Virus record (IMG/VR): IMGVR_UViG_3300047323_000675
Direction: 5' to 3' (one strand)
Source: a virus
Length of the DNA: 64,000 bases
Shown: positions 2-61,822 of the stretch, in pieces
How positions within the stretch are numbered: position 1 is the stretch's first letter
How the letters are laid out: each line of letters starts with the position of its first letter
Notes under the pieces: generated by a model
Told to the model about the DNA's origin: nothing
Seen by the model: only the letters and a program-made list of their open reading frames with translations
Database searches by the model: none
Position numbers and translations under genes: made by a program

Positions 2-859
2 TTAAATTTTTAATCGTTTAGCACTTATCTTATCATCTTGAATAAGTAAATTATTAATTAACTGTTCAGCTAAATAGACTTGACTCAAAATTGGTTCTTT
101 AGCTATTTTTTCTTCAACTTCAGGATAATTATATATCTTAAAATTGTGAATTAAATGTTTAGCTAATTTAAAAAGTGATTCCTTTTCGTCAGGAAGGCTT
201 AGTGAACTAGTTTTAAATAAATCAAGAATATCAAATTCTTCATTAAGAGCTTTAACTAATAGTTTATCAAATAAATCTAACTTATCTAACATAAATACTG
301 TGATTAAATCTTCAAATTTAGTTTTTGGATGATTTTTTAATTCGTGAGATAGAAAAAGATATTCTATTAAATCCATGTTAGGTTCAAAATTATATAATGC
401 ATTTGTTAGTCCTGATTCTAGAACATCATGGGTTATGACAGCTTTGCCAAATTGTTTAGAAAGTATTCGATGATTGATGCCATTATCCTCACCTATAATA
501 TGTTGATATTTTTTATCAAATTCAACTAAATACTTCACTACTTCTATATGGTTATATGTACAAGCTTTAATGAATCCTGAAGCCGTAGCAATGCCACGAA
601 GATAGTTGTTTTCATGATTAAAACTAGATTTTTTTAAAGCACTTTTTACAAAATTAAAATTTCCTACTTGGCATATTTTAGTAAATATTGAGCTATAGTT
701 TTTATATTGTATATGTGTAGGATGATAATGGTCATAAAAAAGGTAAAATGGTGTTAATTCATTATTTAACAGTTTATCAAATTCAGCAATATTATTGTAA
801 CTCAATAATTCTATAACTTTATCTTTTAAATTCTCAAGTTTTTTATCATCTATATCCAT
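2..859 (-). CDS. divergent ankyrin-like protein with basic tail
   Basis: ICQVGNFNFVKSAL and ACTYNHIEVVKYLVE repeats; ends KRLKI. Confidence 0.7.
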   Translation of the reverse strand: MDIDDKKLENLKDKVIELLSYNNIAEFDKLLNNELTPFYLFYDHYHPTHIQYKNYSSIFTKICQVGNFNFVKSALKKSSFNHENNYLRGIATASGFIKACTYNHIEVVKYLVEFDKKYQHIIGEDNGINHRILSKQFGKAVITHDVLESGLTNALYNFEPNMDLIEYLFLSHELKNHPKTKFEDLITVFMLDKLDLFDKLLVKALNEEFDILDLFKTSSLSLPDEKESLFKLAKHLIHNFKIYNYPEVEEKIAKEPILSQVYLAEQLINNLLIQDDKISAKRLKI

Positions 860-876
860 ATTTATATCTGTTCTTT

Positions 877-1023
877 TTATTTAGTTTTTTTATGTAAAAG
901 ATTGGGTGAAAGTTTCTCACTTATTTTAGGTGATACCATGCCCTTCACAGCATCTAAATTGCCAGCCATACATTGTGAAATAAATTTGTTGCTTAGAGAC
1001 TCACTAATACTATTGGCATTTAT
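877..1023 (-). pseudogene. collapsed ankyrin-family remnant (48 codons, ATA at the likely start position)
   Basis: Hand translation: INANSISESLSNKFISQCMAGNLDAVKGMVSPKISEKLSPNLLHKKTK*; resembles the family N-terminal half-repeat joined to a basic tail; not in the ORF track. Confidence 0.55.
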
Positions 1024-1073
1024 ATTCTTACCTTTTATTTTAATTATACTAGAAATATTTATTTAATAACAGT

Positions 1074-1706
1074 TTATAGCTTTATTCTTTTAGTATCATT
1101 TTTATTCATAATTGGCTGACTATCAATTTCAGCCTTCAATCGCCTATATTCAAATAGTGTTTTTATATCTTTATCCCTTAAGATAATTCTTCTAATTTCT
1201 CTAGTAGGTTTAATTTTTACATTTAAGATAAGGTATTCGACCATATTTTTTTGATTATTTTCATAAGCTGCAAAAAATGCATTTTCTTGTGAGTTAAAAA
1301 AATCAATAGGCTTTTCTAATTCAGGAGATGCTAAAAAATATTTAACGATATCTATATGACCATTTTTACAGGCTACTAAAAACCCTGCTTTAATGGTTTT
1401 ACTCAACTGAATTGATTCAGGAGATGTTAATAAATATTGAACAATACCAAGATATCCTTTATTACAGGCATATATTAAATCTATGTGGGCATGATTTACC
1501 AATTCAGGAGATTTAGTTAAATATTTAATCATTATTGGATCATGCTGTGAAGCTATAAGTCCCTTATTTAAAAATTTATCATTATGTTTATGGTATTTAT
1601 TGACCATATATTTAATTGTAGAGAAATCACTATTTTTACAAGCTTCCAAGAATTTTTCTAATACTTTATCTGTATAATTGGCGAATATTTCGTTTAGTTT
1701 ATCCAT
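1074..1706 (-). CDS. ankyrin-repeat protein
   Basis: ACNKGYLGIVQYLLTSPE, ACKNGHIDIVKYFL; ends KRIKL. Confidence 0.88.
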   Translation of the reverse strand: MDKLNEIFANYTDKVLEKFLEACKNSDFSTIKYMVNKYHKHNDKFLNKGLIASQHDPIMIKYLTKSPELVNHAHIDLIYACNKGYLGIVQYLLTSPESIQLSKTIKAGFLVACKNGHIDIVKYFLASPELEKPIDFFNSQENAFFAAYENNQKNMVEYLILNVKIKPTREIRRIILRDKDIKTLFEYRRLKAEIDSQPIMNKNDTKRIKL

Positions 1707-1711
1707 ATTTA

Positions 1712-7709: not shown

Positions 7710-8450
7710 TTATTTCTGCTTTAAATAACGGTTTACTTTTTCATAAGTATATAACTGCCAGCTAACATTATACCCTTGATTTTTCATTTTTTTAACAGAA
7801 TCAATAAAAAGATTATCCATAATTAGTTTATAGAAATAGATCGAATCATCTAAAGTTGGGCTATTTTTATTAACACTCATATAATCAGCTTTACTATTAA
7901 TTGCAGTAAAGGTTGATTCAATACTTTCAAAATATTCAAGATCTGAGCCATCAACAGCTTTAAGATATGGTAAAATATTGTAGGCAATAATATCGAAAAA
8001 ATAATAATCATTATAAGCAGCACCAGCAAAAATATAGCAATCAGATAGATTACTGATTTCATTTATATATTGGCGGATAGTTCCGTAATCCTTTGTATAG
8101 TCTGCGGCATTGTCATTAATAACATCTTCATTATAAATGATAATGGAATAGGGTGTGTTTTCAAATGAAAATTGAAGATAGTAAAAGATATCTTCAGGCT
8201 CATCATTGGCAATATCTTCAGATTGAAGCATTACCATTTTATTAAGGATATCTTTAACTTGTGCTAGTTTATAATGATGCACAAAATGGATATTAGCTGT
8301 ACAACAAGATGAGCCAATCAGATTATCAATTCCACCATTAAACTTAGTAAATTTTTGAAGAGAATCTAGAATAAAATTTTCTGTATTTTCTAAACAATGA
8401 ATAAAAGCATCTTTACCTGCAATTTTAGTCTGCACAGTAATCATTTTCAT
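7710..8450 (-). CDS. hypothetical protein (non-ankyrin, no basic tail)
   Basis: 246-aa ORF with GGAG Shine-Dalgarno upstream of the ATG; no family recognised. Confidence 0.75.
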   Translation of the reverse strand: MKMITVQTKIAGKDAFIHCLENTENFILDSLQKFTKFNGGIDNLIGSSCCTANIHFVHHYKLAQVKDILNKMVMLQSEDIANDEPEDIFYYLQFSFENTPYSIIIYNEDVINDNAADYTKDYGTIRQYINEISNLSDCYIFAGAAYNDYYFFDIIAYNILPYLKAVDGSDLEYFESIESTFTAINSKADYMSVNKNSPTLDDSIYFYKLIMDNLFIDSVKKMKNQGYNVSWQLYTYEKVNRYLKQK

Positions 8451-13233: not shown

Positions 13234-13563
13234 TTATGCAAAAATTAAATGAGTAAATAATTTAGAAAGAACCATGATTATTATTCCCAAAAAAAGACAA
13301 AATGAAGCCCATAAAACAGCAAGTTTACGATTTTTTGCCAAAATTGCGAGAGGAAATAAACCAAAAATAATAATTCCAATCCCAATTACAATAGACTCCC
13401 TTCCTTCTATTAAAATTTCCACATTATATCTAGAAGAATAAGCATAATAGCGATTATTAATAATACTTAATAAGCCTGGTAATGCAAAAGCAATACTCAT
13501 AAGAATTGTAAGGAATTTCACCAACGGGTTTACTGTGTTTTTTTTAACATTTGAATCATCCAT
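13234..13563 (-). CDS. small membrane protein, about 3 TM (non-ankyrin, no tail)
   Basis: Three hydrophobic stretches; AGGAG Shine-Dalgarno upstream. Confidence 0.75.
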   Translation of the reverse strand: MDDSNVKKNTVNPLVKFLTILMSIAFALPGLLSIINNRYYAYSSRYNVEILIEGRESIVIGIGIIIFGLFPLAILAKNRKLAVLWASFCLFLGIIIMVLSKLFTHLIFA

Positions 13564-17582: not shown

Positions 17583-17718
17583 ATGAATGAAACAGACAAC
17601 CATATTATTAGAGTAATGACTTCTCAAGAAGTTAAGGAGATTCGTTCAAAATTACAATTAAGCCAAAAAGATTTTTGCCATCGTTATGGCTTACCTATTG
17701 GAACATTTAGGAATTGGG
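17583..17718 (+). pseudogene. XRE-family HTH regulator (HigA/MqsA-like), 5' part, interrupted by IS
   Basis: Hand translation MNETDNHIIRVMTSQEVKEIRSKLQLSQKDFCHRYGLPIGTFRNW, broken at TGG G; joins in frame to 19637-19758. Confidence 0.85.
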
Positions 17719-17764
17719 TCTGAAACAGTTAGCATAAAATCTATTCATAATTGTTCAATAAATA

Positions 17765-17793
17765 TTGACTTATTTCATTATTTAAAGTATTCT
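17765..17793 (+). promoter_or_regulatory. sigma70-type promoter of tnpB
   Basis: TTGACT-17 nt-TATTCT, 23 nt upstream of the ATG at 17817. Confidence 0.6.
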
Positions 17794-17816
17794 AAGCTCA
17801 TGTTTTTTATTTAATA

Positions 17817-19601
17817 ATGCAAACTACTTTAACTGCTTCTCTAATTGATGATTCTCATGCTGATTTTATTAATCAGAAATTAGATCAATTTAATACTTTA
17901 TTTAATAAAACTAAAAGAAATCTTTATAAAGATATTATTAAATTCTATAGTCAAAATAATACCAATAAGCTTTCTACCTCAAAGATTAATCAATTAAAGT
18001 CTTCTTATCAAACTATTTTTTGTATTAATTCTAGACATTACAATTCTATTTTTAATGACCTTTTGGGCAATATTAATTCTATTCTTGAACTTAATAAAGA
18101 CTATATTGTTGACACTAAAGATAATATTACATCTTTGTCTAAATCATTAAAATCTAAACAATCTATTTTAGATAGTCTTGTTAAGAAAATGTCTGCAAAA
18201 AATTATATTGAGAATAATATTGATAAAACCAATAAGGATAAGTTAGTTAATAAAATTTTCTATCTTAAAAAAAGATTAAATAAAGCTAATAATAAACTAG
18301 TTAAATTATTAGATATTGAAAAATCGGGTAATCCCCATTTATGTTTTGGTTCTAAAAAGTTATTTAATCAACAATTCATGATTAATACTAAAAATAATTT
18401 AACTTCATTTAAATTCCAGGAGGATTGGAAGAAAGCTTGGATTGAATCTAGAAATAGAAATTTTATTTTTATTGGCAGTAAAGATGAAACAGCAGGTAAT
18501 TCTAACTGTCAAATAAAACATATTGAAAATGATATTTATCAGGTAACTGTTAATGTTGATCCTAAAGCTACAAAACATAAAGATAAATATATTACTTTTA
18601 ATATCAAAGTCTATAATGATAAAAATAATTATCTTTTAAATTCTATCAATAACAATTCAGAGAAAGATAAATCTAAACATCAAGCTTTAACTTATAGATT
18701 TTATAAATATAATGGTAAATATCAGGTATTTATTAGTTTAGATAAAGATAATCAACAGCCCAAGATTATTAGTCATAGATTATCTGGAGCTATTGGTATA
18801 GATATCAATTCAGATCATTTATCTGTTTCTGAAATTGATAGATTTGGTAATTTAAAGAAGACTTGGAATATTCAACTTAATCTTAAAGATAAAACTACTG
18901 AACAATCTTTAGATAATATTGCTTGTGCTGTGAAAGAAATTACAGATTATGTTGTTAAAGTAGGTAAACCAATAGTAATAGAAAAACTTAACTTTAATCA
19001 AAAGAAATCTGAATTAAAGTCAGGATTTAATAAAAAATATAATGTAATGTTATCAAGCTTCGCCTATCGTAAGATAATAGAGTTAATTAAAAGTAGATCA
19101 TTTGACAAAGGTATTGAGATTATTGAGGTTAATCCAGCTTACACTAGTAAAATAGGCAAATTTAAATATCAAAACCAATATAAATTAACAACCCATCAAG
19201 CAGCTAGCTTTGTCATAGCAAGAAGAGGTTTATTGTCTTATGAAAAATATAAAAATATCAGAACAACTAAAATAAATAAAGAAACAAAAATAAAAGCAGA
19301 AATTATAGAAAGAAAGCCTGTAACAGTAGTACATAAAGAAAAACCAATTTCTAACCGTAGGAGTAAATATTATCCTTTTGGTTTACCTGTAAGGAATAGT
19401 CAAAAACAAGATGGTATTTATTGGAAAGAAATTGAGCAGAATTATCTCAAAGCGAAAAAGCATAGAATCGTACTGAAAAGGAAGAAACTTATCCTTGGCA
19501 ATAATGGCAGTAAATTATTATCAAGAGAAACAACTGTAGTAGCTGATAACTCTGAGGTAGACCGTGACCTATCCACAAATCTATTATTTCAACCTTTTTA
19601 G
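17817..19601 (+). CDS. tnpB: TnpB-family RNA-guided nuclease-like protein, 594 aa
   Basis: RuvC-I GAIGIDIN, RuvC-II PIVIEKL, NVMLSSFAY, VNPAYTSK; RuvC-III position reads HQAASFVIARRG. Confidence 0.85.
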   Translation: MQTTLTASLIDDSHADFINQKLDQFNTLFNKTKRNLYKDIIKFYSQNNTNKLSTSKINQLKSSYQTIFCINSRHYNSIFNDLLGNINSILELNKDYIVDTKDNITSLSKSLKSKQSILDSLVKKMSAKNYIENNIDKTNKDKLVNKIFYLKKRLNKANNKLVKLLDIEKSGNPHLCFGSKKLFNQQFMINTKNNLTSFKFQEDWKKAWIESRNRNFIFIGSKDETAGNSNCQIKHIENDIYQVTVNVDPKATKHKDKYITFNIKVYNDKNNYLLNSINNNSEKDKSKHQALTYRFYKYNGKYQVFISLDKDNQQPKIISHRLSGAIGIDINSDHLSVSEIDRFGNLKKTWNIQLNLKDKTTEQSLDNIACAVKEITDYVVKVGKPIVIEKLNFNQKKSELKSGFNKKYNVMLSSFAYRKIIELIKSRSFDKGIEIIEVNPAYTSKIGKFKYQNQYKLTTHQAASFVIARRGLLSYEKYKNIRTTKINKETKIKAEIIERKPVTVVHKEKPISNRRSKYYPFGLPVRNSQKQDGIYWKEIEQNYLKAKKHRIVLKRKKLILGNNGSKLLSRETTVVADNSEVDRDLSTNLLFQPF

Positions 19602-23603: not shown

Positions 23604-24167
23604 TTATATTTTATTTTTTGGTTTATCTATAGAATTAATAGGTAATTCTTTTTTAAGAGAATTATTTAATAGGTAACTTTGAAGTTTTTTATAATATTGC
23701 TGATAATCTTCCAATAAATAAACTGCGTTTCCATTATTACTCATATTTATTTCATTTATGACTTCTTTTATATTATCTTGTAATTGATAATCTCTGAATT
23801 CAAAAATCTTTTTATTTTTATAAAGAATATCAAGCCCAATATTCATTAAATCATTAAATACCTTTTCTTTTTCTTGAATAATACTAAGATTATAAACATG
23901 ATATATTGTGTTTTGAAAGAAGCGTTCGCTAAATCCATTAGCAATGTTAAAAAACTTAAGATATCCTTCTCCATTGTTTTCAATAGTTTGATCTATCAAA
24001 GATGCTGCAACTAAATAACTAAGATAATCTTTACTATTACTACCTAATGATGTATTAAATTCTGTAAATTTTTTATTAATACATTGATATATAAATATAC
24101 TTTCAACTTTTTTAAAATCATCTTTGGTAAGATAATCTTGAAATTCAAATAGTTCAAATGCTTTCAT
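23604..24167 (-). CDS. hypothetical protein (non-ankyrin) carrying the family C-terminal module
   Basis: No ACxxG repeats; ends YLLNNSLKKELPINSIDKPKNKI. Confidence 0.8.
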   Translation of the reverse strand: MKAFELFEFQDYLTKDDFKKVESIFIYQCINKKFTEFNTSLGSNSKDYLSYLVAASLIDQTIENNGEGYLKFFNIANGFSERFFQNTIYHVYNLSIIQEKEKVFNDLMNIGLDILYKNKKIFEFRDYQLQDNIKEVINEINMSNNGNAVYLLEDYQQYYKKLQSYLLNNSLKKELPINSIDKPKNKI

Positions 24168-25651
24168 ATTTTTAACCTTTTTGTATTGTTAGATGTATTA
24201 TGTCCTAAATCATTATTTAATTCGGCATATTCTAATGCTTTCTCCATTTTTAAAACACTTTGTTGTTGCTCTGGACTTAAGTAATTATTATATATAGAAT
24301 CAGTTTTTATTAATTTAATAAGTATTTCACCTGGCATAATTTTTTTATTATTTGGACTAATTAGCACTTCAATATCATTATTAACTAAGAATTGAGCAAT
24401 ATTAAACATTGCCTTACCATTACTACTATTATTTTGTGTTTTAATAATTTTTTCAAAGAAATTTGCTAAATAATGTGCGAAATTATTTCCTTCTTCGTCT
24501 TTAATTTGCCAATCAATATATTTTTTTTCTGACAGCTTTATTATTGTACTTTCTATTTCAGTTGTTTTACCTAAGCAAAATAAAGAGCAAACTGAAGAAT
24601 ATATTTTCAGATTATTTAACTCCTTATTTGTTTGATACCATTGATTAAGTATTGATGTATTATAATGAAATTTTTTTATAGCATTATTTTCTAAAAAAAC
24701 TTCAGAATTAGTTGAGTTTTTCATATCTCTATATACTTCATCTTTAATCTCTGAAACACTCCAAGAGTCACGAGCAGTCATAACAATATTCTGTTCTGTG
24801 ATTGGTTTAGCATTATAGTAAAGCTCAAAATCCTTCCAATTATTATTATGAAGGCAATAAGCCATCATTAATTCTTGAAAATTTTTGGAAATGGAATCAT
24901 TTTGAATATTTCTAACTAAAAAATCATTTAAAGTGCTATGTAATAAAGTGTCTGTTCCAAGTTCTTTACTAAATCTATCAAAAAAATTTAAATTTTTATT
25001 ATCATTAATTTTTAGATTAACTCTAGAAAAAAATGATAATAAGAAATTTTTAACTAATTTTTTTTCTTCTATTTTTTCTAGATATATTTTAGCAAACTCG
25101 TTAGATTTATTTGAATATATGGAATCAAAAATTGGCATATTATTTACCATATATAACGGATTATCTAATTTATCTAACAGTTTTTTTGCCAAATTTACTC
25201 TGCCTTTAATTCCAAAACGAGCAGCACAATGTTCTATTTGTTCTTTATCATTCAATAAATCCGTAGTTGTTTTTCCTGGGAAAAATTTTGCACATATCTC
25301 ATTCATTGTATTCAATATTTGATTATTTTTTATGTAATAAAACGCACACTGTACACCCATAGATGGTATTTCTGGTTTTATAAATAACCTTTCAAAATAA
25401 TAACTTGCTGAACGAGTGTTATCAAAAAATTCCTTAAAGCAAGCGGAAGCACCATATTCTATACAAGCTTTTAATGTGCAATCTAATTGAATATGAGGAT
25501 ATCTATCTAAATAAGCTTTAAAGGCATCTGGTTTATCATAAAAGAAAATTAAATCTAATGACTTAGGTATATAGGATAAATATTTATGTTCAGATGGAAC
25601 TGTTAATCCCAATTTTTGAGTGAATTGTTTTTCTTCAAAAGACATGTACAT
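24164..25651 (-). CDS. 495-aa helical hypothetical protein carrying the family C-terminal module
   Basis: No 35-aa repeats (only a weak ankyrin-like DEEGNNFAHYLA); ends YAELNNDLGHNTSNNTKRLKI. Confidence 0.8.
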   Translation of the reverse strand: MYMSFEEKQFTQKLGLTVPSEHKYLSYIPKSLDLIFFYDKPDAFKAYLDRYPHIQLDCTLKACIEYGASACFKEFFDNTRSASYYFERLFIKPEIPSMGVQCAFYYIKNNQILNTMNEICAKFFPGKTTTDLLNDKEQIEHCAARFGIKGRVNLAKKLLDKLDNPLYMVNNMPIFDSIYSNKSNEFAKIYLEKIEEKKLVKNFLLSFFSRVNLKINDNKNLNFFDRFSKELGTDTLLHSTLNDFLVRNIQNDSISKNFQELMMAYCLHNNNWKDFELYYNAKPITEQNIVMTARDSWSVSEIKDEVYRDMKNSTNSEVFLENNAIKKFHYNTSILNQWYQTNKELNNLKIYSSVCSLFCLGKTTEIESTIIKLSEKKYIDWQIKDEEGNNFAHYLANFFEKIIKTQNNSSNGKAMFNIAQFLVNNDIEVLISPNNKKIMPGEILIKLIKTDSIYNNYLSPEQQQSVLKMEKALEYAELNNDLGHNTSNNTKRLKI

Positions 25652-26387: not shown

Positions 26388-27938
26388 TTAAATCTTTATT
26401 TTTGCTTTTTTATTAAATTCATTATCGGTAGAAAAACTATATTCTACTAAATTATGTAATGTTTGCTTATATAAAATTTTCTGACTACGAGTTAACTTAG
26501 GGAAAAATATTCCATATGTTTTATTTTTTAATGTAGTTGCTCTATTAATACTTTGGACATGTCTAGCAAGTATTTCAGGAGTTTCAGTCCAATATCCCAG
26601 ATTAATATTTTTTTCATTAGCATGTTTAATTATTGTTTTCATATAAGGCGAAGTTCCAAAAAAGCCTCTACTTCCTTTAAATGGATTATTTAAATTACAG
26701 AAATTATTTTCTTCCAACCATTCTTTTAAAATTTTGCTAATTTTTTCTTTTGCTAAATTTTTATTATTTTGTATAGACTGAAGTTGTTCCTCATTTAACT
26801 TTAATGAAGAAATAAGACTCTTGAGTATATTGCTTGTTGGGGAAAAAAATGATTCCATATTAGCATTGATCATAGTAATGCCAGTTAACGCATAATATTT
26901 AAAATGATCTTTGATACTAGATACTAATTTTTCTTTTTTTTCAGAATCAAGATTATCTAGTTTAGATTTCAAATCACCTAATAATGAGGATAAAATTATC
27001 TCAGTAGAAGAATCAAAAAATAAAGATGATTTAGCTTCATAATTTTGAGAGATTTCTATTATTGACTCATCACTAACCATTTTAACTATAGTTTCTTGAA
27101 AATTATTTAAAAATTTATTGTTAAGTTTATTAATGTTAATATTATCTTTAAATAAATCCATTAATACAAAGCTAGATAAATAACCGTTTTCAAATGCTAA
27201 ATTTCTTTCTTTTGATGGCACAGAATACAATTTATTAAATGCAAGATGATCAAAAATATGTGTATATTCATGAATGAGTGACTCTAAAAACCAATATGGC
27301 TTATTAGGCTTTACTGTAAGAGTAAAATAACCATCATCATTATCTAGGCATGCTCCTTGTGACTCATTTGGAGTAAGCAAAGATGTACAATGTAGAGTCA
27401 ACTTACCATTTAAATTAATTTTTTCTTTTGATAGATTGAAATCTTTCATAAATTTAGTTAAAGATTTTCTTGTAAGTTTCGCCCAATAACTTACCTTATC
27501 CCAATTATCTGTTTTATGGATAATTATTGTTTGAAGATTAAAATCGTTTTTTAATTTATCAACTAAATTTATTGCGATATTTTTATCGCCTTTTAAAGAA
27601 ATAGGCTCATAATTTTTTATAGGGTTTTTCAATATTTTTTCTATTTCTATTTTAAGTACATTCATAATATTATTGTTTATAATATCCAATGTTCTTAAGT
27701 TATCAGAGACTTTCTGATTTTCTTCCTGAATATATATTTTTACATTTTTTCTAGTTTTTGATATACTCTTTTTAATTATCTTTAGATCCTCAATATTTTC
27801 TAAATTATCTAAGTTTGATTTCCATAAAGAAATTATTTCTTTGAAAAATAAATTGCAATTTGGAGAGCCAGAAATATAAATATCAAAAAAATCATCAATG
27901 AATGATTTTAAATAATTAATTTTTTCTTGAGTTATCAT
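26388..27938 (-). CDS. zincin-like metallopeptidase, LPD1 (large polyvalent protein domain 1)-like, with basic tail
   Basis: INLNGKLTL, LIHEYTHIFDH (HExxH) and YWTETPEILAR resemble LPD1 motifs (recognised from memory, no search run); ends KAKIKI. Confidence 0.65.
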   Translation of the reverse strand: MITQEKINYLKSFIDDFFDIYISGSPNCNLFFKEIISLWKSNLDNLENIEDLKIIKKSISKTRKNVKIYIQEENQKVSDNLRTLDIINNNIMNVLKIEIEKILKNPIKNYEPISLKGDKNIAINLVDKLKNDFNLQTIIIHKTDNWDKVSYWAKLTRKSLTKFMKDFNLSKEKINLNGKLTLHCTSLLTPNESQGACLDNDDGYFTLTVKPNKPYWFLESLIHEYTHIFDHLAFNKLYSVPSKERNLAFENGYLSSFVLMDLFKDNININKLNNKFLNNFQETIVKMVSDESIIEISQNYEAKSSLFFDSSTEIILSSLLGDLKSKLDNLDSEKKEKLVSSIKDHFKYYALTGITMINANMESFFSPTSNILKSLISSLKLNEEQLQSIQNNKNLAKEKISKILKEWLEENNFCNLNNPFKGSRGFFGTSPYMKTIIKHANEKNINLGYWTETPEILARHVQSINRATTLKNKTYGIFFPKLTRSQKILYKQTLHNLVEYSFSTDNEFNKKAKIKI

Positions 27939-32127: not shown

Positions 32128-32916
32128 TTACAACTTAATTTTTTTTAAATTAACAATATGATATTCTAATAATTCAGAGTTAAGTTCCTTGTTAAGTTTC
32201 CGCATTTCAAACATATTTTTAATTTCTGTTCCAAATTCTCTATTATTTAAATATTCTTTAATATGCTCAGTAAATTCAATATTGAGTTCAAAAATAAAAT
32301 ATTGAATGACATCTATATGTCCTTCATCACAAGTTACTTTAAAAATACTATCATTGTCTGCATGAATATTAGATTTTTCCTTTAAATCATCAGAGGTTAA
32401 AAAAAACTTAATTAAATCTAAATAACCATGATAACAAGCATTGTTTAAAGCTTTATCATTTTTAGCATGAATATTTGCATGCTCTTTTAATTGTTCAGAT
32501 GTTAATAAATATTTGACAGACTCTAGTAAACCATGTCCACAACAAGCACGAAGAGCAAAATCATCATCAATATGAATATTTATATTTTCTTTTAATTCTG
32601 ATGAAGTTAGTAAATAATGAACAATATTTAAATGTCTTCCAAGTGCAGCACTTACTAAAGCATTACCGTTATCTGCATTTATATTAGCATGTTCTTTAAG
32701 TTCAGTTGAAGTTAGTAGATACTTTACTATCTCTAAATGACCATATTGACATGCCTCATTTAAGCCTTTATCAGAATTGTAATGAATATCAGCATGCTGA
32801 GTAAGTTCAGGTGATGTAAGGAAATATTTAATTTTTTCAAGATTTCCATTTCTACATGCTTCAATAAACTGAACATTTAAATAAATATCTTGGTGATCAG
32901 AAAATAAATCACTCAT
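32128..32916 (-). CDS. ankyrin-repeat protein
   Basis: ACQYGHLEIVKYLLTSTEL; ends KKIKL. Confidence 0.93.
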   Translation of the reverse strand: MSDLFSDHQDIYLNVQFIEACRNGNLEKIKYFLTSPELTQHADIHYNSDKGLNEACQYGHLEIVKYLLTSTELKEHANINADNGNALVSAALGRHLNIVHYLLTSSELKENINIHIDDDFALRACCGHGLLESVKYLLTSEQLKEHANIHAKNDKALNNACYHGYLDLIKFFLTSDDLKEKSNIHADNDSIFKVTCDEGHIDVIQYFIFELNIEFTEHIKEYLNNREFGTEIKNMFEMRKLNKELNSELLEYHIVNLKKIKL

Positions 32917-35394: not shown

Positions 35395-35949
35395 TTATCT
35401 AGGAATGCATGAACAAGGCCAACTAAACCAATAAACATCATTAGGAATACCAGTCATAATTAAATATTGGAAACCTTCTCCATACATAAGTGGATCATCC
35501 TCTTTTTTGAATCTAGCTTCCGCTTCCTCTAAAGAGGAAAAACTTCCAATATATTCATTCCAGGGAGTAGTGCTATTAGTTAATTCACTACGGTAAATAG
35601 AATACATGCCAACAGGAGGTGCTGGAGGAACAACAGTTCTATTAGGTGCTACAGCATGGGTATAAGGGTCAGATGGCTGTGTTGGACTCACTATAGGTGG
35701 TATTGGATTATCTATTACTGGTGGTGTTGGGTCAACAGGCATAGGATCAGGAATGACTATTGGCTCAAGTGGAGGAGGAGGTTGGGGAATTTCAACAGGA
35801 GTAGTCCCAACAGATGGTTCAGAAGGAATAGGGTTTTGATTTGGTGGAACAGTTTCAACAGGATTGGTAGTAGATGATTGTGTATCACCACCGCCACCAC
35901 CACAAGAAATCAATGATAAACAAAAGATACAAGCTAATACATGTTTCAA
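35395..35949 (-). CDS. proline-rich lipoprotein (non-ankyrin, no tail)
   Basis: Signal peptide with lipobox LIS-C followed by GGGGG; Pro-rich stalk; TTG start with GGGAG SD. Confidence 0.78.
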   Translation of the reverse strand: MKHVLACIFCLSLISCGGGGGDTQSSTTNPVETVPPNQNPIPSEPSVGTTPVEIPQPPPPLEPIVIPDPMPVDPTPPVIDNPIPPIVSPTQPSDPYTHAVAPNRTVVPPAPPVGMYSIYRSELTNSTTPWNEYIGSFSSLEEAEARFKKEDDPLMYGEGFQYLIMTGIPNDVYWFSWPCSCIPR

Positions 35950-36026
35950 AATAAAATCTCCATAATAGGAGAATATTTTATTATTTATTTTTAAAATAAG
36001 AAATGTTTTATTTGCAACATTATAAA

Positions 36027-41603: not shown

Positions 41604-41666
41604 AATATACTTTTTGAGTTTGATTTTAATTATAAATCAGATATTAACTAAATGTCTACAAAATAT

Positions 41667-53555: not shown

Positions 53556-53580
53556 ATTTTATTTCCAATAATTGAATTAA

Positions 53581-56726: not shown

Positions 56727-57442
56727 ATTTTTACTTTTTTTGTTGATATTGATTTACAGTTTAATTGATTAGTTAATTCAGAATTAATTTCTTGTAATTC
56801 AAACATTTTTTTAGCATGCACATTAAGAGGTAAGTCATTCTTAAGAAATTCTTCAATATACTTTGTTTTAGCAATATTGAAGTCAACAATAAGAAACTGC
56901 ATTAATTCTTTATGGTTATTAGTAACAACATATCTAAATACCAAATCATTTCGACAATGGACATTTATATGTTCTGTAAATTTTTCATGTGTTAATAAGT
57001 ATTTAAGAATATCATATTGCCCTTCTCTTGCAGCAGTAATTAAAAAATCATTTCCATAAGTCTCGATAGAAATTTTCGGTGATTCTAAAATATTTTGTGG
57101 TAAGAGAAAAAAATTTAGTATTTTTAAATTTCCTTCTTTTGCGGCACTATCAAAAGAATAAAAAAGCATTTGTTCAGGTATAACAATATTATGTGATTTT
57201 TCTAATGAGAAAAGATATTTGAGTAATTCAAGATGATTATAGGTGCAAGCAGCGTTTATTGCTCGTCTTACTTGTTCATGCAGATCAGGTAAACAAGGAG
57301 CTTCATCTGAATGAAGCAAAAACTTAACTGCTTCTATATCCCCAAATTTACATATTTCATAAAATTCACCAATTGGATCAGTTAAATGAGAAATTCCAAT
57401 TTGTCCTTGATGATATTTATTGTTATATTCTTGTAAATTCAT
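56723..57442 (-). CDS. ankyrin-repeat protein
   Basis: AAREGQYDILKYLL; ends KKVKI. Confidence 0.88.
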   Translation of the reverse strand: MNLQEYNNKYHQGQIGISHLTDPIGEFYEICKFGDIEAVKFLLHSDEAPCLPDLHEQVRRAINAACTYNHLELLKYLFSLEKSHNIVIPEQMLFYSFDSAAKEGNLKILNFFLLPQNILESPKISIETYGNDFLITAAREGQYDILKYLLTHEKFTEHINVHCRNDLVFRYVVTNNHKELMQFLIVDFNIAKTKYIEEFLKNDLPLNVHAKKMFELQEINSELTNQLNCKSISTKKVKI

Positions 57443-57482
57443 TTAATTTTTATCTTTGTTGTAATTTGTCTAAAACTTTTAA

Positions 57483-57491
57483 ATTATACCA
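57483..57491 (-). promoter_or_regulatory. extended -10 promoter element (TGGTATAAT)
   Basis: TGnTATAAT in the 64-bp gap upstream of 57442. Confidence 0.45.
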
Positions 57492-57506
57492 AAAAAGAAA
57501 AAAATA

Positions 57507-58349
57507 TTAAATTTTTGATTTAGTAAATTGTTTGCAGTTATAATTGATAGTTAATTCTGAATCTAAGTTATTGTGTAATTCACGCTTAAACAATAATTGT
57601 GCTGCTATATGATTAGAATTATTTTCCATAAATTCTTTAATTGGGGGAAGGATTTTAATCTTATAATCAAATACTAAATAGTGCCAAACACCTTCTTTAC
57701 AGTTTGAAGGAGTATTGACTAATTCAAAAAATGGCTGGCAATTATCATCATAAATATTAGCATGTTCTGTAAGCTTAGGGCTTGTAAGTAAATATTTAAC
57801 CATATGTTCATTTGGTAATGAGCTACGAAATGCCCATCGCAATGCTCTATTCCCATATGCATGAATATTAGCTCTTTCTTTAAGTTTTTTGTGAGTTAAT
57901 AAATATTGAGCTATAGTTGGTTGACTGCCACGACAAGCAGTGGCTAAAACTTCTTCATTATTATAATGAATATCAATAGGAGTGGAAAAATTGTCAGCAG
58001 TAAGTAAATAACGAATAGTAGGGAAGCAGCCATATGTACAGGCACTAACCAATGCCTTTTCTTTTGCAAAGTCAGCAACCCTAATACATTCTAATCCATC
58101 GTGTTCTCCTAAACAGTTTATAGAATTACTAAACAAACACTTTGATTTATTTGCATCATCACTATGAGTTGATATTTCAGGAGAAGTTAATAAAAATTTC
58201 ACAACATCTACAGCATTTGTTCCTGCTGCAAACATAAGTAATTCATTATTATTAAAAAAAATATCCACACCTAATTGCGGATCGTTTAAGTAATCTCTAA
58301 GTTTTATTAAATCATTTTCTTTAACTGCATCATATAATTTTTGGCTCAT
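57507..58349 (-). CDS. ankyrin-repeat protein
   Basis: NIHAYGNRALRWAF, ACTYGCFPTIRYLL; ends TKSKI. Confidence 0.88.
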   Translation of the reverse strand: MSQKLYDAVKENDLIKLRDYLNDPQLGVDIFFNNNELLMFAAGTNAVDVVKFLLTSPEISTHSDDANKSKCLFSNSINCLGEHDGLECIRVADFAKEKALVSACTYGCFPTIRYLLTADNFSTPIDIHYNNEEVLATACRGSQPTIAQYLLTHKKLKERANIHAYGNRALRWAFRSSLPNEHMVKYLLTSPKLTEHANIYDDNCQPFFELVNTPSNCKEGVWHYLVFDYKIKILPPIKEFMENNSNHIAAQLLFKRELHNNLDSELTINYNCKQFTKSKI

Positions 58350-58364
58350 TATTCTTGGAAATAG

Positions 58365-58751
58365 TTATAATTTAAATTTTTTATTCTCATAATCATTATT
58401 TGTCAAATTACAATTCAATTCTTTTTTTAAATCTCTAGTAATAAACATTTTACCAATTATTTCATCTTGTGATGTTTTAAGTATTTTATCTATATGTTCA
58501 GTTTTTTGTATATTCATATCGAAAATAAAAAATTTTAGAAGTTCTATATGATTATATAAATAAGCTTGTCCAAAAGGAGAATCCTGACCACAATGTATAT
58601 CAGCATGAAATCTGAATTCTGGAGTAGTTAATAAAATTTTTGCTTGGTCTATATTTCCACTAATACATGATTTAACTAAAGCATGATTTAGTTCATATTG
58701 ATTGAAATTTCTACATGATTTAATAAATAAATTTTTATTTTTTTTGTTCAT
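58365..58751 (-). CDS. ankyrin-family protein (short)
   Basis: SCISGNIDQAKILLTTPEF...HADIH; ends KKFKL. Confidence 0.82.
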   Translation of the reverse strand: MNKKNKNLFIKSCRNFNQYELNHALVKSCISGNIDQAKILLTTPEFRFHADIHCGQDSPFGQAYLYNHIELLKFFIFDMNIQKTEHIDKILKTSQDEIIGKMFITRDLKKELNCNLTNNDYENKKFKL

Positions 58752-59650
58752 TATAATTTAGGTTTCTTATTTTTAACACTATCTTTATTTTCTAAACTAA
58801 GCTCTTTATTTAAATCCCTGGTAATAAACCAAGTATTTATTTCTTTAAGATTATAGTCTTGGATATATTTTTCTATAAAAGAAGTTTTTTCTATATTATA
58901 TTCAAATATTAAATAATGAATAATATTCATATTTTTTTCTTCTATAGCACATATAAATGGTGAGTCACTATTATTATGAATATCTATATAATTTTTAGCT
59001 TGTGGTAAATTTAAAATATAATTAAGAGTATCTAATGCCCCTTCATAACAGGCATGGAATATTGCTTGATTTATACATTTATGAAGATTAATATTTTCTT
59101 TTAAATCTGAACTTTCTAAAACATACTTAGCAATATCTAAATGATTTCCAGCACATGCATAAATAAAAACTTCTTCGTTATTAGCATGAATATCAGCATG
59201 TTGTTTAAGTTCTTTAGATGTAAGTAAATACTTAACTATTTCTAAGTGTCCTCCATAACTTGCTTCAGTAAGTACAGATGGATTTATATTTGAATGCTTC
59301 TGAAGCTCATTACTAGTTAATAAATATTTCACTATATCTAAATATCCATTTCTGCATGCATTTTTTAAAGCTTGCTCATGACTTCCATTAATATCAGGTG
59401 GGTTATTAATCTTTGTAGAAGTTAATAAATATTTTACTATATCTAAATGACCATTTTCGCATGCTTGGTAAAGCCCATTAAAAGGTTCAACACTATTATA
59501 AATACGATTAGGTTCTGCATGAAATTTCAATATTGGATCATGTAAAACAAATTTAACTAATTCTAAATCTCCATTAATACATGCATTTATGAAGACATCA
59601 TTTATTTGTATTTGGTTTTTATTGGCATAAAAATTTTTATCAATTTTCAT
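58751..59650 (-). CDS. ankyrin-repeat protein (many repeats)
   Basis: ACENGHLDIVKYLL; N-terminus MKIDK shared with 59647..60534; ends KKPKL. Confidence 0.93.
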   Translation of the reverse strand: MKIDKNFYANKNQIQINDVFINACINGDLELVKFVLHDPILKFHAEPNRIYNSVEPFNGLYQACENGHLDIVKYLLTSTKINNPPDINGSHEQALKNACRNGYLDIVKYLLTSNELQKHSNINPSVLTEASYGGHLEIVKYLLTSKELKQHADIHANNEEVFIYACAGNHLDIAKYVLESSDLKENINLHKCINQAIFHACYEGALDTLNYILNLPQAKNYIDIHNNSDSPFICAIEEKNMNIIHYLIFEYNIEKTSFIEKYIQDYNLKEINTWFITRDLNKELSLENKDSVKNKKPKL

Positions 59651-60534
59651 AATTTAAGTCGTTTACTTTTATTTTCTTCCTGCGAGATAATTAATTCATT
59701 ATTTAAATTCTGTTTTAAATCTCTTACTTTAAACCAATTTTGAATTTCTATATTATCTTTAATAGACTCTTCAATTTTTTGATCTTTCTTTATGTCATAT
59801 TCAAATATAAAATATTTAACAATTTCAAAATTTTTATCTTGAATAGCTGTAATAAATTGCGAATTAATATCTACATGTTCATTAATATAAGTATTCTTTA
59901 AAAGATAATCCAATGCATCTACAGAACTATATCTTCGAACATTTGAGAAAATTTCTTTATAAGTAGAGGAAGTAATATTTTGTAATAAATCTGTATCTTC
60001 CAATAAGTATTTTGCAACATTTACATAATTATTTGCACAAGCTCTTTGAAATCCTATTACATACTTTTGTGGATCAACATGAACTTTAATATCGGGTGAT
60101 ACCAATAAATACTTAACTATTTCTAACTCTCCACTACCACAAGCAGAAATGAAAGAATTAGGATTTTCGAAAATGTCTATATAATCTACATTATCATCTG
60201 TAAGTAGGAATTTAACAATATCTAAATGACCATAAGCTGCGGAAGTAGATAAAGCTGCCCCAATCTCATTATCAGATCTTTTCGTATTCTTTAAATCCTC
60301 AGAAGTGAGAAGATATTTTGCAATATCTAAATGTCCATTTTTACATGCAATAATTAATGAATTAGAATATTCAAACTGTTTAGTAACATAATATTCTTTA
60401 GCTTTTAATGGTAAATCTTTATCAGTTAAGAGTAATTTAACCAAATCTAAATTACCATTTTCACATGCTTCTGCTAGAGACTCATTAAGTTCATCTTGGT
60501 TTTTATTTATATATAAACTTTTATCAATTTTCAT
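59647..60534 (-). CDS. ankyrin-repeat protein (many repeats)
   Basis: ACKNGHLDIAKYLL; ends KRLKL. Confidence 0.93.
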   Translation of the reverse strand: MKIDKSLYINKNQDELNESLAEACENGNLDLVKLLLTDKDLPLKAKEYYVTKQFEYSNSLIIACKNGHLDIAKYLLTSEDLKNTKRSDNEIGAALSTSAAYGHLDIVKFLLTDDNVDYIDIFENPNSFISACGSGELEIVKYLLVSPDIKVHVDPQKYVIGFQRACANNYVNVAKYLLEDTDLLQNITSSTYKEIFSNVRRYSSVDALDYLLKNTYINEHVDINSQFITAIQDKNFEIVKYFIFEYDIKKDQKIEESIKDNIEIQNWFKVRDLKQNLNNELIISQEENKSKRLKL

Positions 60535-60537
60535 GTT

Positions 60538-61125
60538 TTATAATTTTATTTTTTTTATGTTGTTTTTGTTTTCTATCACTGTTAATTCATTATTCAAATT
60601 TTTATTCAAATCTCTAAGAGTAAAAATTTGATCAATAGTTTCGTCTGGATTTTCGTGTAGAAAATTATTAATTTTTTCAGTTTTTTGTGCGCCCTCATCA
60701 ATAATAATAAATGAAATAACATGATAATGTTTATTGATAGCAGCCTGTATTAAAGAATCACTATAAATATCATTAAGATTAGGAATATTTTTTCCGATAA
60801 TTTCAAAAAAGTACTGAACTATATCAAGATGACCACCTAAACATGCTGATGTTAATCCACCATAATCATCTGAACTAATATCAATATTTTTTTCTAATTC
60901 TATTGATGAAACTAAATACTTAACTAATTCAATATTTCCGGCATAGCATGCCCATTGAAAACCTGTGAGTTCTATTGAAGAAATATTAGCATGGCTTTCT
61001 AATTCAGAAGATGTTAAAAGAAACTTAACAAGTTCTATTTCATTATTTTTACAAGCAGTATTTAAAGCTAAATTAAGCTGATTAATCGTTGAATCATGAT
61101 ATTTATCATAATAAATTTTTTTCAT
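60538..61125 (-). CDS. ankyrin-repeat protein
   Basis: GFQWACYAGNIELVKYL; ends KKIKL. Confidence 0.92.
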   Translation of the reverse strand: MKKIYYDKYHDSTINQLNLALNTACKNNEIELVKFLLTSSELESHANISSIELTGFQWACYAGNIELVKYLVSSIELEKNIDISSDDYGGLTSACLGGHLDIVQYFFEIIGKNIPNLNDIYSDSLIQAAINKHYHVISFIIIDEGAQKTEKINNFLHENPDETIDQIFTLRDLNKNLNNELTVIENKNNIKKIKL

Positions 61126-61129
61126 ATAT

Positions 61130-61822
61130 TCACATTTTCAATTTTTTATCTTGTAAGTTTCTAATATGTAACTCTTGATGTAGCTCATCATGAACATCTC
61201 TTAATTTAAACATTTTTTCAACTTCAGAATTAGGGTAAGTCTGCATTATGGACTTAATATGATCATTTTTATCAATATAATAATCAAATATAAGATATTG
61301 TAGCACATCTAGACTATTTCTTAGTGAAGCTAGTTTAAAACTATCATGTGTTGAATCATTTATATCAGGATGTATTTCTAAATCAGGTGATGTAAGCAAA
61401 TAACGAACAACCTCTACATGATTATTCTGACATGCTAACTGTAAAGCATAATTATTAGCATCAAGAATATCTGAATGCACTTTTAACTCGGGTGAACATG
61501 CCATGTATTTAACAACATCAATATGGCCATTCATACATGCAATTTGAAAACAATAATTATTACTTGCTGTAATATTGCAATGATCTTTTAAATCAGGTGA
61601 AGTTAATAAATACTTTACTATATTTAGTCGTCCATATTCACAAGCTTTTTCTAAAAAATATTCTTTATTAAAATGAATATCTATTTCATCTGCGTTCTGT
61701 ACAAATGGAGATTTAAAAATATATTCTATATCTCCAAGTGAACCTTTTGTAATTGCCACTGTTATCGCAGTATATAAGTCTGCGGCACTATATTCATCAT
61801 ATTTGCTAGGGTCATCTATCAT
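61130..61822 (-). CDS. ankyrin-repeat protein, first gene of the array
   Basis: ALQLACQNNHVEVVRYLL; ends KKLKM. Confidence 0.92.
   Translation of the reverse strand: MIDDPSKYDEYSAADLYTAITVAITKGSLGDIEYIFKSPFVQNADEIDIHFNKEYFLEKACEYGRLNIVKYLLTSPDLKDHCNITASNNYCFQIACMNGHIDVVKYMACSPELKVHSDILDANNYALQLACQNNHVEVVRYLLTSPDLEIHPDINDSTHDSFKLASLRNSLDVLQYLIFDYYIDKNDHIKSIMQTYPNSEVEKMFKLRDVHDELHQELHIRNLQDKKLKM

What the first reader, a model, noticed from the sequence alone, without database searches (positions are those of the whole stretch)
2..61822. A ~62-kb single-strand array of 79 ankyrin paralogs
Seen: 79 ankyrin-family genes in one head-to-tail run with only six non-ankyrin minus-strand genes and one HTH/IS interruption. 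They share one architecture: N-cap (Y..[FY]KD.S..ELN..F..AC), a variable number of repeats, C-cap (YFIFELNIEKT..I..YL), an RELNxEL helix and a basic tail. Known: ankyrin expansions occur in Wolbachia, Orientia, Legionella, Coxiella, Amoebophilus, Babeliae and giant viruses, typically as genes in many loci. Inference: this is a dedicated, locally expanding library of binders with a constant scaffold and variable target-facing positions, aimed at a eukaryotic host/predator or at competing elements.
Basis: partly seen in the sequence, partly recalled or inferred. Interest (0 to 1): 0.9.

Follow-up and report, generated by a model that had tools for sequence, protein, structure and literature searches.

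The report
Giant tandem array of ankyrin genes
A 62-kb stretch of an uncultured low-GC proteobacterium holds 85 back-to-back genes, about 79 of them small ankyrin-repeat proteins with one shared scaffold and tail; this is probably a large, old and stable set of host-targeting binders, unusual mainly for its size and tight packing.

Summary
Between 2 and 61822 there are 85 co-directional minus-strand ORFs. 79 are mutual paralogs, 73 hit Pfam Ank_2, and 78 carry 301 copies of an atypical 35-residue ankyrin unit. An AlphaFold model (pLDDT 91) matches only ankyrin domains in the PDB.

Six ORFs lie outside the family by sequence. One TnpB-type IS element with a small HTH-like ORF interrupts the run. 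82 of 85 ORFs end in K-[LIVM], usually K-[KR]-x-K-[LIV]. 45 of 84 junctions are ATGA stop/start overlaps.

It is not an assembly artefact. An independent contig is 100% identical over two sampled stretches (about 22 kb of window 29,798-64,000), paralog DNA is at most 68% alike, and a sister species carries a collinear array.

Variability concentrates on one face of the inner helix, which fits a constant scaffold with a variable binding face. But the array is old: paralogs are at most 50% identical, there are 42 collinear orthologues with unchanged lengths, and dN/dS is about 0.27. So there is no sign of ongoing expansion or positive selection.

A more distant relative has one family gene at this site, so the expansion was local. 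Export into a eukaryotic host is inferred, not shown. No whole genome, reads or secretion genes could be examined.

The scan noted this same stretch in overlapping windows, and a second array in this genome, but not on other DNA.

The parts
2..61822 (-). Array of 85 co-directional ORFs (94-516 aa, median 229). 79 are paralogous ankyrin-repeat proteins. 45 of 84 junctions are 4-nt ATGA overlaps.
32128..32916 (-). Representative member (262 aa): N-terminal capping helix, six 35-aa helix-helix-loop units, C-cap, long C-terminal helix (residues 229-259), tail ending KKIKL.
   Evidence: AlphaFold2 model has pLDDT 91.3 and pTM 0.81. All top PDB matches are ankyrin domains. Ank_2 scores 67 bits.
17817..19601 (+). 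TnpB-related ORF (594 aa) of an IS200/IS605-type element. It is the only plus-strand gene inside the array.
   Evidence: TIGR01766 44.6 bits (cut-off 32); guided_TnpB E=8e-13 but below its cut-off; weak Cas12f1-like TNB hit
17583..17723 (+). 46-aa ORF upstream of the TnpB-like gene, weakly HTH-like.
   Evidence: Pfam HTH_92 E=0.025, below cut-off
24164..25651 (-). 495-aa tagged ORF with no sequence match to the family, but ankyrin-like by protein-language features and by the Atlas structure. An orthologue is present in the sister species (57% identity).
26388..27938 (-). 516-aa tagged ORF of unknown family. Absent from the sister species' array.
23604..24167 (-). 187-aa tagged ORF of unknown family. 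Orthologue in the sister species (63% identity).
35395..35949 (-). 184-aa Pro-rich putative lipoprotein (lipobox-like LISC). It lacks the tail. Conserved in the sister species (68%). A hairpin plus T-run follows it.
7710..8450 (-). 246-aa untagged ORF of unknown family.
13234..13563 (-). 109-aa untagged hydrophobic (membrane-like) ORF.
35957..35972 (-). One of two minus-strand terminator-like hairpins in the scanned 20 kb and the only one in an intergenic gap (between 36027-36746 and 35395-35949); the other, at 35625-35609, lies inside ORF 35395-35949.
41629..41658 (-). Best sigma-70-like site (TAGACA-18-TATAAT) in an intergenic gap of the array. A possible internal promoter.
   Evidence: Promoter-like sites are not enriched overall: 128 found against 158 in shuffles.
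860..1073 (-). 214-nt gap holding a short remnant similar to family members (likely a gene fragment).
61945..62433 (+). Glycine-zipper (17-kDa-antigen type) outer-membrane protein gene. Right boundary of the array, syntenic in relatives.
62998..63549 (-). Translation initiation factor IF-3. A housekeeping anchor that shows the replicon is bacterial.

Best explanation
The region is a chromosomal 'effector farm' of an uncultured, 25%-GC, roughly 2.2-Mb proteobacterium. It holds about 79 small ankyrin-repeat proteins encoded head to tail.

Shown:
- Each protein has a constant solenoid scaffold: an N-cap, one to seven 35-residue units, and a C-cap.
- Each displays a hypervariable stripe on the inner helices, which is the likely ligand-binding face.
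- Each ends in a shared module: an amphipathic helix, a polar linker, and K-[KR]-x-K-[LIV]-COOH.
- The genes are packed so that the last Leu/Ile codon plus a TGA stop contains the next ATG (TTATGA or ATATGA). Few have a Shine-Dalgarno-like site, and terminators are rare.
- The family expanded at this site after the split from a relative that has one copy here, and before the split from a sister species at dS of about 1.
- Since then it has been kept by purifying selection, with occasional gain or loss of whole genes. It evolves about twice as fast as its flanks at non-synonymous sites.

Inferred:
- The genes are made as very long polycistronic units by termination-reinitiation.
- The proteins have no signal peptides, and sibling notes on neighbouring windows report the same tail on LRR, DUF285 and lipase genes. 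I therefore infer that the tail module is a C-terminal delivery tag for a one-step secretion route, most likely type IV.
- I infer that the proteins act as a panel of binders inside a eukaryotic (protist) host cell.
For: Fold and family.

Repeat unit and variability: searches give position entropies; one search shows a 35-aa period in 127 of 204 consecutive unit pairs.

Shared tail: 82 of 85 ORFs end in K-[LIVM]. Position -5 is K in 65 of 82 and position -4 is K or R in 72 of 82.

Gene packing: 45 ATGA overlaps. 45 of the 49 TGA stops lie in overlaps. Only 14 of 85 ORFs have an SD-like site. In 20 kb, only two minus-strand terminator-like sites were found, one of them intergenic.

Reality of the array: an independent Logan contig is 100% identical over the two stretches compared, together about 22 kb of window 29,798-64,000. 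Internal DNA similarity is at most 68%.

Age and selection:
- Paralogs are at most 50% identical.
- There are 42 collinear orthologues in a sister species, found in about 70 collection blocks.
- dS is 0.65-1.7. dN/dS is 0.13-0.43 (median 0.27), against 0.03-0.24 (median 0.16) for nine flank genes.

Local origin: a relative with the same methylase-SLT-IF3-glycine-zipper flank has one family gene at this site.

No Sec signal peptides on family members.

Spread of the family: the C-terminal module is found, full length and at the C-terminus, in several hundred small proteins from metagenomes. 694 have E<=1e-10 among 1.84 billion representatives.

Precedent: ankyrin expansions are typical of intracellular bacteria and giant viruses of protists (PMC6561590, PMC5871332).
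Against: - No secretion system, host or expression data could be examined.
- The tail does not match known signals. EExxE (the Legionella E-block) occurs in 0 of 85. Generic basic-C-terminus criteria are also met by flank proteins in this Lys-rich proteome.
- The NCBIfam Dot/Icm AnkG model scores far below its cut-off (36 bits against 500).
- No position shows pN above pS, so an arms race is not demonstrated.
- Between orthologues, amino-acid differences are spread over most non-core positions. Only radical changes are enriched on the inner-helix stripe.
- Organism placement rests on DnaK of a relative (76-80% to Betaproteobacteria), not on the window's own genome.
Confidence: 0.6

Rival explanations
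1. The proteins stay inside the bacterium. They act as a library of neutralisers, for example immunity proteins against polymorphic toxins or binders of phage or mobile-element proteins. The basic tail would serve some internal role.
For: Ankyrin proteins serve as immunity or self-protection factors in some bacteria (cited in PMC6561590 for Bdellovibrio; PMC3482391 covers polymorphic toxin systems). None of the family has a signal peptide. No secretion system has been seen.
Against: No toxin genes lie next to or within the array. Immunity islands are mixtures of families rather than about 79 paralogs of one. Sibling notes report the same tail on LRR, DUF285 and lipase genes, which fits export better than immunity. 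The scale matches effector expansions of intracellular bacteria.
Confidence: 0.12
2. The proteins are host-delivered effectors, but the C-terminal K-[KR]-x-K-[LIV] tail is not the export signal. It acts in the host, for example as a classical monopartite nuclear localisation signal (K-K/R-x-K/R) or a polybasic membrane anchor. Export would depend on another feature.
For: The tail fits the K-K/R-x-K/R consensus of classical nuclear localisation signals (my knowledge) and is nearly invariant. It does not resemble the E-block.
Against: A strictly C-terminal position with a fixed last hydrophobic residue in 82 of 85 proteins is typical of signals read from the free C-terminus, not of nuclear localisation signals, which work at any position. 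It is not clear why about 80 different binders would all need one host address.
Confidence: 0.15
3. The array is a decaying swarm of duplicates with little individual function: neutral genomic bloat of a small-population symbiont.
For: Non-synonymous evolution is faster than in the flanks. There is a gene remnant at 860-1073 and one member without the basic tail at 41049-41603. Presence and absence of members differ between species.
Against: All 42 orthologue pairs keep intact frames and nearly identical lengths across dS of about 1. dN/dS is 0.13-0.43. The tail and core positions are strongly conserved.
Confidence: 0.05
4. The stretch is an assembly artefact, or it belongs to a giant virus rather than a bacterium.
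For: 25% GC and directional ankyrin arrays recall Bodo saltans virus (PMC5871332). Some members weakly hit the African swine fever virus MGF530 model.
Against: An independent contig is identical. There are no near-identical repeats. IF-3, a glycine-zipper outer-membrane protein and, in relatives, GrpE-DnaK-DnaJ or CysS flank the site. The genes are ATGA-coupled. Collinear arrays lie on contigs of 0.36-2.0 Mb from several samples.
Confidence: 0.02

Closest known systems
Ankyrin gene arrays of Bodo saltans virus (a 'genomic accordion'; PMC5871332)
   Same: More than 100 ankyrin genes, mostly in directional tandem arrays, in a 25%-GC genome of a parasite of protists. They are read as anti-host binders.
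   Different: The virus has near-identical recent duplicates at the genome ends and disrupted genes. Here paralogs are at most 50% identical, the array is stable across species, the replicon is bacterial, the genes are translationally coupled, and all share a C-terminal basic tail.
Ankyrin expansions of Dependentiae (Chromulinavorax destructans with 98 copies, Babela massiliensis; PMC6561590)
   Same: About 100 ankyrin proteins take a large share of a low-GC genome of a bacterium that lives inside protists.
   Different: 78% of the Chromulinavorax proteins carry Sec signal peptides. Here none does, and a C-terminal tag is present instead. The lineage here is a proteobacterium by DnaK similarity of a relative.
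Dot/Icm and other type IV ankyrin effectors of Legionella and Coxiella (Pan et al. 2008, cited in PMC5871332; signal features in PMC3814349)
   Same: Ankyrin binders without signal peptides that are delivered through a C-terminal signal. A basic, hydrophilic C-terminus.
   Different: Those genes are scattered over many loci and have diverse architectures. Their signal is the E-block type, which is absent here (0 of 85). The AnkG model is not met. No type IV system could be looked for.
Orientia tsutsugamushi Ank family (type I substrates with an F-box-like C-terminus; PMC4315096, PMC5957444)
   Same: Dozens of paralogous ankyrin proteins, each with a shared C-terminal module after the repeats.
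   Different: The Orientia module is an F-box/PRANC that binds SKP1, and the genes are dispersed with mobile elements. No F-box or PRANC hit appears here, and the tail is basic rather than type I-like.
Designed ankyrin repeat proteins (DARPins)
   Same: Capped consensus scaffold with a variable number of internal units. Variability falls at the equivalents of positions 13 and 14 of the first helix. DARPin structures are among the fold matches.
   Different: The unit here has 35 residues, a longer first helix and a conserved TSPELKEHA-type loop. The loop tips are conserved rather than variable, and there is no TPLH motif.

Membership tests
Ankyrin repeat superfamily (Pfam Ank_2 PF12796 and relatives) | Sequence match above the curated threshold | tested here: met
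   73 of 85 hit at E<=0.01. Eight of ten members tested singly score 29-106 bits against the 27.3-bit cut-off.
Ankyrin repeat superfamily (Pfam Ank_2 PF12796 and relatives) | Stacked helix-turn-helix-loop solenoid fold | tested here: met
   The model has pLDDT 91.3 and paired helices. All top PDB matches are ankyrin domains, TM 0.5-0.63.
Ankyrin repeat superfamily (Pfam Ank_2 PF12796 and relatives) | Canonical 33-residue period with a TPLH motif | tested here: not met
   The period is 35 aa in 127 of 204 unit pairs and 33 aa in 9. The TPLH place reads [AG]-[LF]-x-x. This is an atypical subfamily, not a non-member.
Type IV (Dot/Icm or VirB/D4) translocated ankyrin effectors | A type IV secretion system encoded in the same genome | not testable with these tools
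   No whole genome is held, and contig records are not searchable.
Type IV (Dot/Icm or VirB/D4) translocated ankyrin effectors | Known C-terminal signal (EExxE E-block; net positive, hydrophilic C-terminus) | tested here: inconclusive
   EExxE is present in 0 of 85. 83 of 85 have at least 3 basic residues in the last 25, and 40 of 85 have charge of at least +2, but flank proteins also pass.
Type IV (Dot/Icm or VirB/D4) translocated ankyrin effectors | Match to a curated effector model (NCBIfam T4SS_AnkG) | tested here: not met
   36 bits against a cut-off of 500.
Giant-virus ankyrin 'genomic accordion' | Directional tandem arrays of ankyrin genes | tested here: met
Giant-virus ankyrin 'genomic accordion' | Recent, near-identical duplicates | tested here: not met
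   Maximum paralog identity is 50% at protein level and 68% at DNA level.
Giant-virus ankyrin 'genomic accordion' | Viral replicon | tested here: not met
   IF-3, a glycine-zipper outer-membrane protein and DnaK/GrpE/CysS synteny in relatives.
Ankyrin/F-box (PRANC) proteins of poxviruses and Orientia | C-terminal F-box-like domain | tested here: not met
   No F-box or PRANC family is among the Pfam hits of the 85 ORFs.

The most novel reading that the evidence does not exclude
An undescribed proteobacterial lineage, absent from 185,579 species-representative genomes, keeps well over 150 effector-like proteins. They sit in chromosomal arrays that are translated as coupled trains. All are addressed by one new C-terminal tag: an amphipathic helix followed by K-[KR]-x-K-[LIV]-COOH. 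The ankyrin array would then be a natural, evolutionarily stable binder panel with a new 35-residue repeat geometry. Its tag would define a new substrate-recognition rule for a secretion system.
Probability: 0.3. Interest if true: 0.8.

Novelty: new variant of a known kind. Interest (0 to 1): 0.6.

Why it matters
Ankyrin expansions are a hallmark of microbes that live inside eukaryotic cells. In bacteria the genes are usually scattered and varied in architecture. Here about 79 members of one architecture sit in a single co-directional, translationally coupled run that is conserved in order between species.

This has three uses:
- It is a clean natural experiment on how a repeat-protein binder panel evolves. 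Births are old, whole genes are lost, scaffold and tail are under purifying selection, and variation lies on one helix face.
- The shared C-terminal module is a directly testable candidate delivery tag. It could allow effector prediction in a lineage with no cultured member.
- The 35-residue unit, with a long inner helix and a conserved loop, is an alternative ankyrin geometry of possible interest for protein design.

Tried and rejected
- Whole-genome access: none is held. Contig records behind the loci cannot be searched. Secretion systems, rRNA and the rest of the tag-bearing proteome were therefore out of reach.
- GTDB species representatives: scanning with IF-3 found nothing. Scanning with a family alignment found only generic ankyrin hits, for example Ca. 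Berkiella at 27%. A first alignment was too diverse to use.
- Exact-protein look-ups: three left-hand ORFs and the TnpB ORF were not on record.
- Accession search in papers: no result.
- Atlas search with IF-3: no usable taxonomy.
- XPA_C hits in 17 members: in each of the five such members inspected singly they fall on a 12-23-residue stretch inside the repeat region; no single stretch passes on its own, so they were rejected as spurious.
- ASFV MGF530 (DUF249) hits: weak, within ankyrin units, and below cut-off.
- Comchoanobacter as the organism: rejected, because its GC is 39-42%.
- S4TE-style type IV signal criteria: they do not separate array proteins from flank proteins in this Lys-rich proteome.
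- Promoter scan: promoter-like sites are not enriched (128 against 158 in shuffles).
- tRNA and Rfam scans: both empty.
- Positive selection: not detectable. dS is close to saturation and only two species were available.


Full report
WHAT IS THERE

The window is uniformly AT-rich, 24-28% GC. From 2 to 61822 it carries 85 non-nested ORFs of 94-516 aa, all on the minus strand. By all-against-all blastp, 79 of them hit at least one other member at E<=1e-3. 73 hit Pfam Ank_2 at E<=0.01. Members tested singly score 29-106 bits against the 27.3-bit cut-off.

The six ORFs with no family match are 7710-8450, 13234-13563, 23604-24167, 24164-25651, 26388-27938 and 35395-35949.

The single plus-strand gene, 17817-19601, passes the TnpB-related model TIGR01766. 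A 46-aa weakly HTH-like ORF precedes it. The right border is a glycine-zipper outer-membrane protein gene followed by infC. No tRNA or Rfam family lies in the window.

ANATOMY OF THE PROTEINS

A repeat model built from the window finds 301 units in 78 ORFs, 1-7 per protein with a mode of 4. The period is 35 residues in 127 of 204 consecutive pairs and 33 in only 9. The unit reads roughly [AG]-[LF]-x-x-A-C-x-x-G-H-L-[DE]-I-V-K-Y-L-L-T-S-P-E-L-K-E-H-A-D-I-H-x-x-N-D. It has no TPLH motif.

An AlphaFold2 model of 32128-32916, made with a 24-sequence alignment, has mean pLDDT 91.3 and pTM 0.81. It shows a 12-residue first helix, a 9-residue second helix and a 15-residue loop per unit, then a C-cap and a long terminal helix at residues 229-259. 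Foldseek against the PDB returns only ankyrin domains (FEM1, gankyrin, EHMT1, espin, DARPins) at TM 0.5-0.63. This is therefore a real but atypical ankyrin subfamily.

THE C-TERMINAL MODULE

After the C-cap ([YF]-[LF]-I-F-[DE]-L-N-I-type) comes an F-x-x-R-x-L-N-x-x-L-x-x-E-L helix. A polar N/S/K-rich linker of about 8 residues follows, and then the tail. Counted from the end:
- position -5 is K in 65 of 82
- position -4 is K or R in 72 of 82
- position -3 is variable
- position -2 is K
- position -1 is L (47), I (29), V (5) or M (1)

82 of the 85 ORFs end in K-[LIVM], including three of the non-family ORFs. No family member has a Sec-type signal peptide. Only the Pro-rich ORF 35395-35949 has a lipoprotein-like leader.

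A profile of the last 80 residues (79 model positions) was scored against 1.84 billion representative proteins. It finds 1,814 proteins at E<=1e-3 and 694 at E<=1e-10. Most are 100-350 aa and match the whole module at their very C-terminus. The family is therefore real beyond this genome, but modest in size.

GENE PACKING

- 45 of 84 junctions are 4-nt overlaps and 4 more are 1-nt overlaps.
- 45 of the 49 TGA stops lie in such overlaps.
- The commonest endings are TTATGA (30) and ATATGA (15). The final Leu or Ile codon plus the stop contains the next ATG.
- Only 14 of 85 ORFs have a Shine-Dalgarno-like site.
- In the 20 kb scanned, promoter-like sites are not enriched. Only two minus-strand terminator-like hairpins were found: one in an intergenic gap (35957-35972) and one inside ORF 35395-35949.
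- The other gaps are short and AT-rich.

I infer very long polycistronic units translated by termination-reinitiation. Expression itself was not tested.

IS IT AN ARTEFACT?

No.
- An independently built Logan contig (101,898 bp) is 100% identical to the window over the two sampled stretches, 29,798-41,097 and 52,998-64,000. It ends inside one member.
- The best internal DNA similarity in the window is 68% over about 600 nt, so there is nothing for an assembler to collapse or inflate.
- A sister species carries a collinear array on contigs of 47 kb to 2.0 Mb from several JGI samples. Its genes are listed in about 70 blocks of the collection.

ORGANISM

No whole genome is held. The window's proteins sit on a 2,230,803-bp contig. 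IF-3 has relatives of 53-91% identity only on unnamed metagenome contigs. One of these is labelled 'archaeon' in NCBI, which is probably a binning error.

Two scans of 185,579 species-representative genomes found no close relative. DnaK of a syntenic relative is 76-80% identical to betaproteobacterial DnaK, such as Gallionella and a 'Betaproteobacteria bacterium'. The lineage is therefore an undescribed member of Pseudomonadota. Placement is approximate.

EVOLUTION

Paralogs are old. Median identity is 31.5% and the maximum is 50.4%. Best-hit partners are adjacent 8 times, against 1.9 expected and a maximum of 7 in 2,000 shuffles. They lie within three genes 16 times, against 5.5 expected. This is a trace of ancient tandem duplication.

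Against the sister species (IF-3 about 90% identical) there are 42 collinear orthologue pairs over the 54 genes from 23604 to 61822. They are 46-76% identical and have nearly unchanged lengths. The pairs include two non-family tagged ORFs and the lipoprotein.

Twelve window genes have no counterpart, and six or seven sister genes have none here. The window-only genes are not recent copies; for the seven window-only genes right of 36027, the best paralog is 27-47% identical.

For 30 collinear pairs, dS is 0.65-1.7 and dN/dS is 0.13-0.43 (median 0.27). Nine flank genes give 0.03-0.24 (median 0.16). Among these, IF-3 gives 0.07, and an isolated ankyrin gene outside the window that also ends in K-M-K-I gives 0.03. 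dS is near saturation, so these ratios are rough.

A more distant relative (IF-3 72%) has the same methylase-SLT-...-IF3-glycine-zipper flank. It has a single family gene at this site, followed by CysS or GrpE-DnaK-DnaJ. So the expansion happened here, after that split and before the split of the two sister species. Since then the array has been maintained rather than expanded.

WHERE THE VARIATION LIES

Across the 301 units the highest entropies are at positions 5 (3.96 bits), 8 (3.90), 4 (3.73), 32 (3.46), 33 (3.42) and 9 (3.34). Core positions 3, 6, 7, 17, 18, 24 and 30 have 0.85-1.3 bits. Positions 11, 13, 16 and 20, taken as exposed on the outer helix by analogy with the canonical ankyrin consensus, have 2.1-2.8 bits.

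In the model, positions 32-33, 1, 4-5 and 8-9 all fall on the first helix with i/i+3/i+4 spacing, which is one face. Positions 8 and 9 align with DARPin positions 13 and 14. The long loop (TSPELKEHADIH) is conserved, unlike the variable beta-turn tips of canonical ankyrins.

Between orthologues, plain amino-acid differences are spread over most non-core positions (0.35-0.59). Radical changes are enriched at positions 5, 8, 22 and 32. No position has pN above pS.

The pattern fits a constant scaffold with a variable binding face, as in ankyrins generally. Diversifying selection is not shown.

HOW IT MOST LIKELY WORKS

Shown:
- a large, stable, tightly coupled array of ankyrin binders
- a shared C-terminal module
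- no signal peptides
- purifying selection

Inferred, at about 0.6: the proteins are exported in one step, with the C-terminal helix plus basic tail as the recognition tag, and they bind targets in a eukaryotic host.

Three things support the inference:
- the analogy with ankyrin effector expansions (PMC6561590, PMC5871332)
- the C-terminal nature of type IV and type I signals (PMC3814349, PMC4315096)
- unverified sibling notes that the same tail sits on LRR, DUF285, HRxDGPA, DUF4116 and lipase genes in adjoining windows, and that a second array of 33-37 ankyrin genes lies 71-95 kb to the left

Known signal definitions are not met or not informative. There is no EExxE, and the generic basicity criteria are also passed by flank proteins. 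The AnkG model is far below its cut-off. There is no F-box or PRANC hit.

COMPARISON AND NOVELTY

The nearest parallel in layout is the directional ankyrin arrays of Bodo saltans virus. That virus has recent near-identical copies and is a virus. The nearest parallels in biology are the ankyrin repertoires of Dependentiae, Legionella/Coxiella and Orientia, which are either Sec-dependent, scattered, or carry other C-terminal modules (PMC4315096).

I rate this a new variant of a known kind. It combines a known strategy (ankyrin expansion) with several unusual features: a very large, ordered, coupled array, a 35-residue unit, a distinctive tail, and an undescribed lineage.

Noticed in passing
window 17583-19601 (+): A long (594-aa) TnpB-related ORF with a small HTH-like ORF upstream is the only insertion in the array. 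No ankyrin remnant flanks it. Whether it is active, or present in the sister species, was not checked.
   Followed up: partly
window 24164-25651 (-): A 495-aa tagged ORF has no sequence similarity to the family. Its ten nearest Atlas structures and most feature neighbours are nevertheless ankyrin proteins (TM 0.36-0.53), so it may be a very diverged solenoid.
   Followed up: partly
L001:5265-6029 (-), about 4 kb beyond the right end of the window: An isolated 254-aa ankyrin gene ending in K-M-K-I is 94% identical between the two species (dN/dS 0.03) and is also present in the distant relative. It is the opposite of the fast-evolving array members, and the tail is evidently old.
   Followed up: partly
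window, all 84 junctions of the array: TGA is used almost only where it overlaps the next ATG (45 of 49). Free-standing genes end in TAA. The protein tail K-[LI] and the junction TTATGA/ATATGA are thus one combined module.
   Followed up: yes
window 6802-7707 (-): One member has a hydrophobic N-terminal segment before its ankyrin units. A metagenomic relative (P0003) has several such segments. These are possible membrane-anchored variants.
   Followed up: no
window 41049-41603 (-): This member ends right after the helix, without the K-[KR]-x-K tail, and has no orthologue at its place in the sister species. It is possibly truncated.
   Followed up: no
window 860-1073: The largest gap inside the array (214 nt) holds a short fragment similar to family members, likely a relic of a lost gene.
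   Followed up: partly
L001:7492-8127 (-) and L001:6883-7389 (-), right flank outside the window: Two non-ankyrin hypothetical proteins in the conserved flank also end in K-K-I-K-I and R-Y-K-L, so the tail is not confined to the arrays.
   Followed up: no
P0130 / L013-L015: A relative's IF-3 (72% identical) is deposited in NCBI under the label 'archaeon'. Its contig carries bacterial GrpE-DnaK-DnaJ and the same flank, so the label is probably a binning error.
   Followed up: partly
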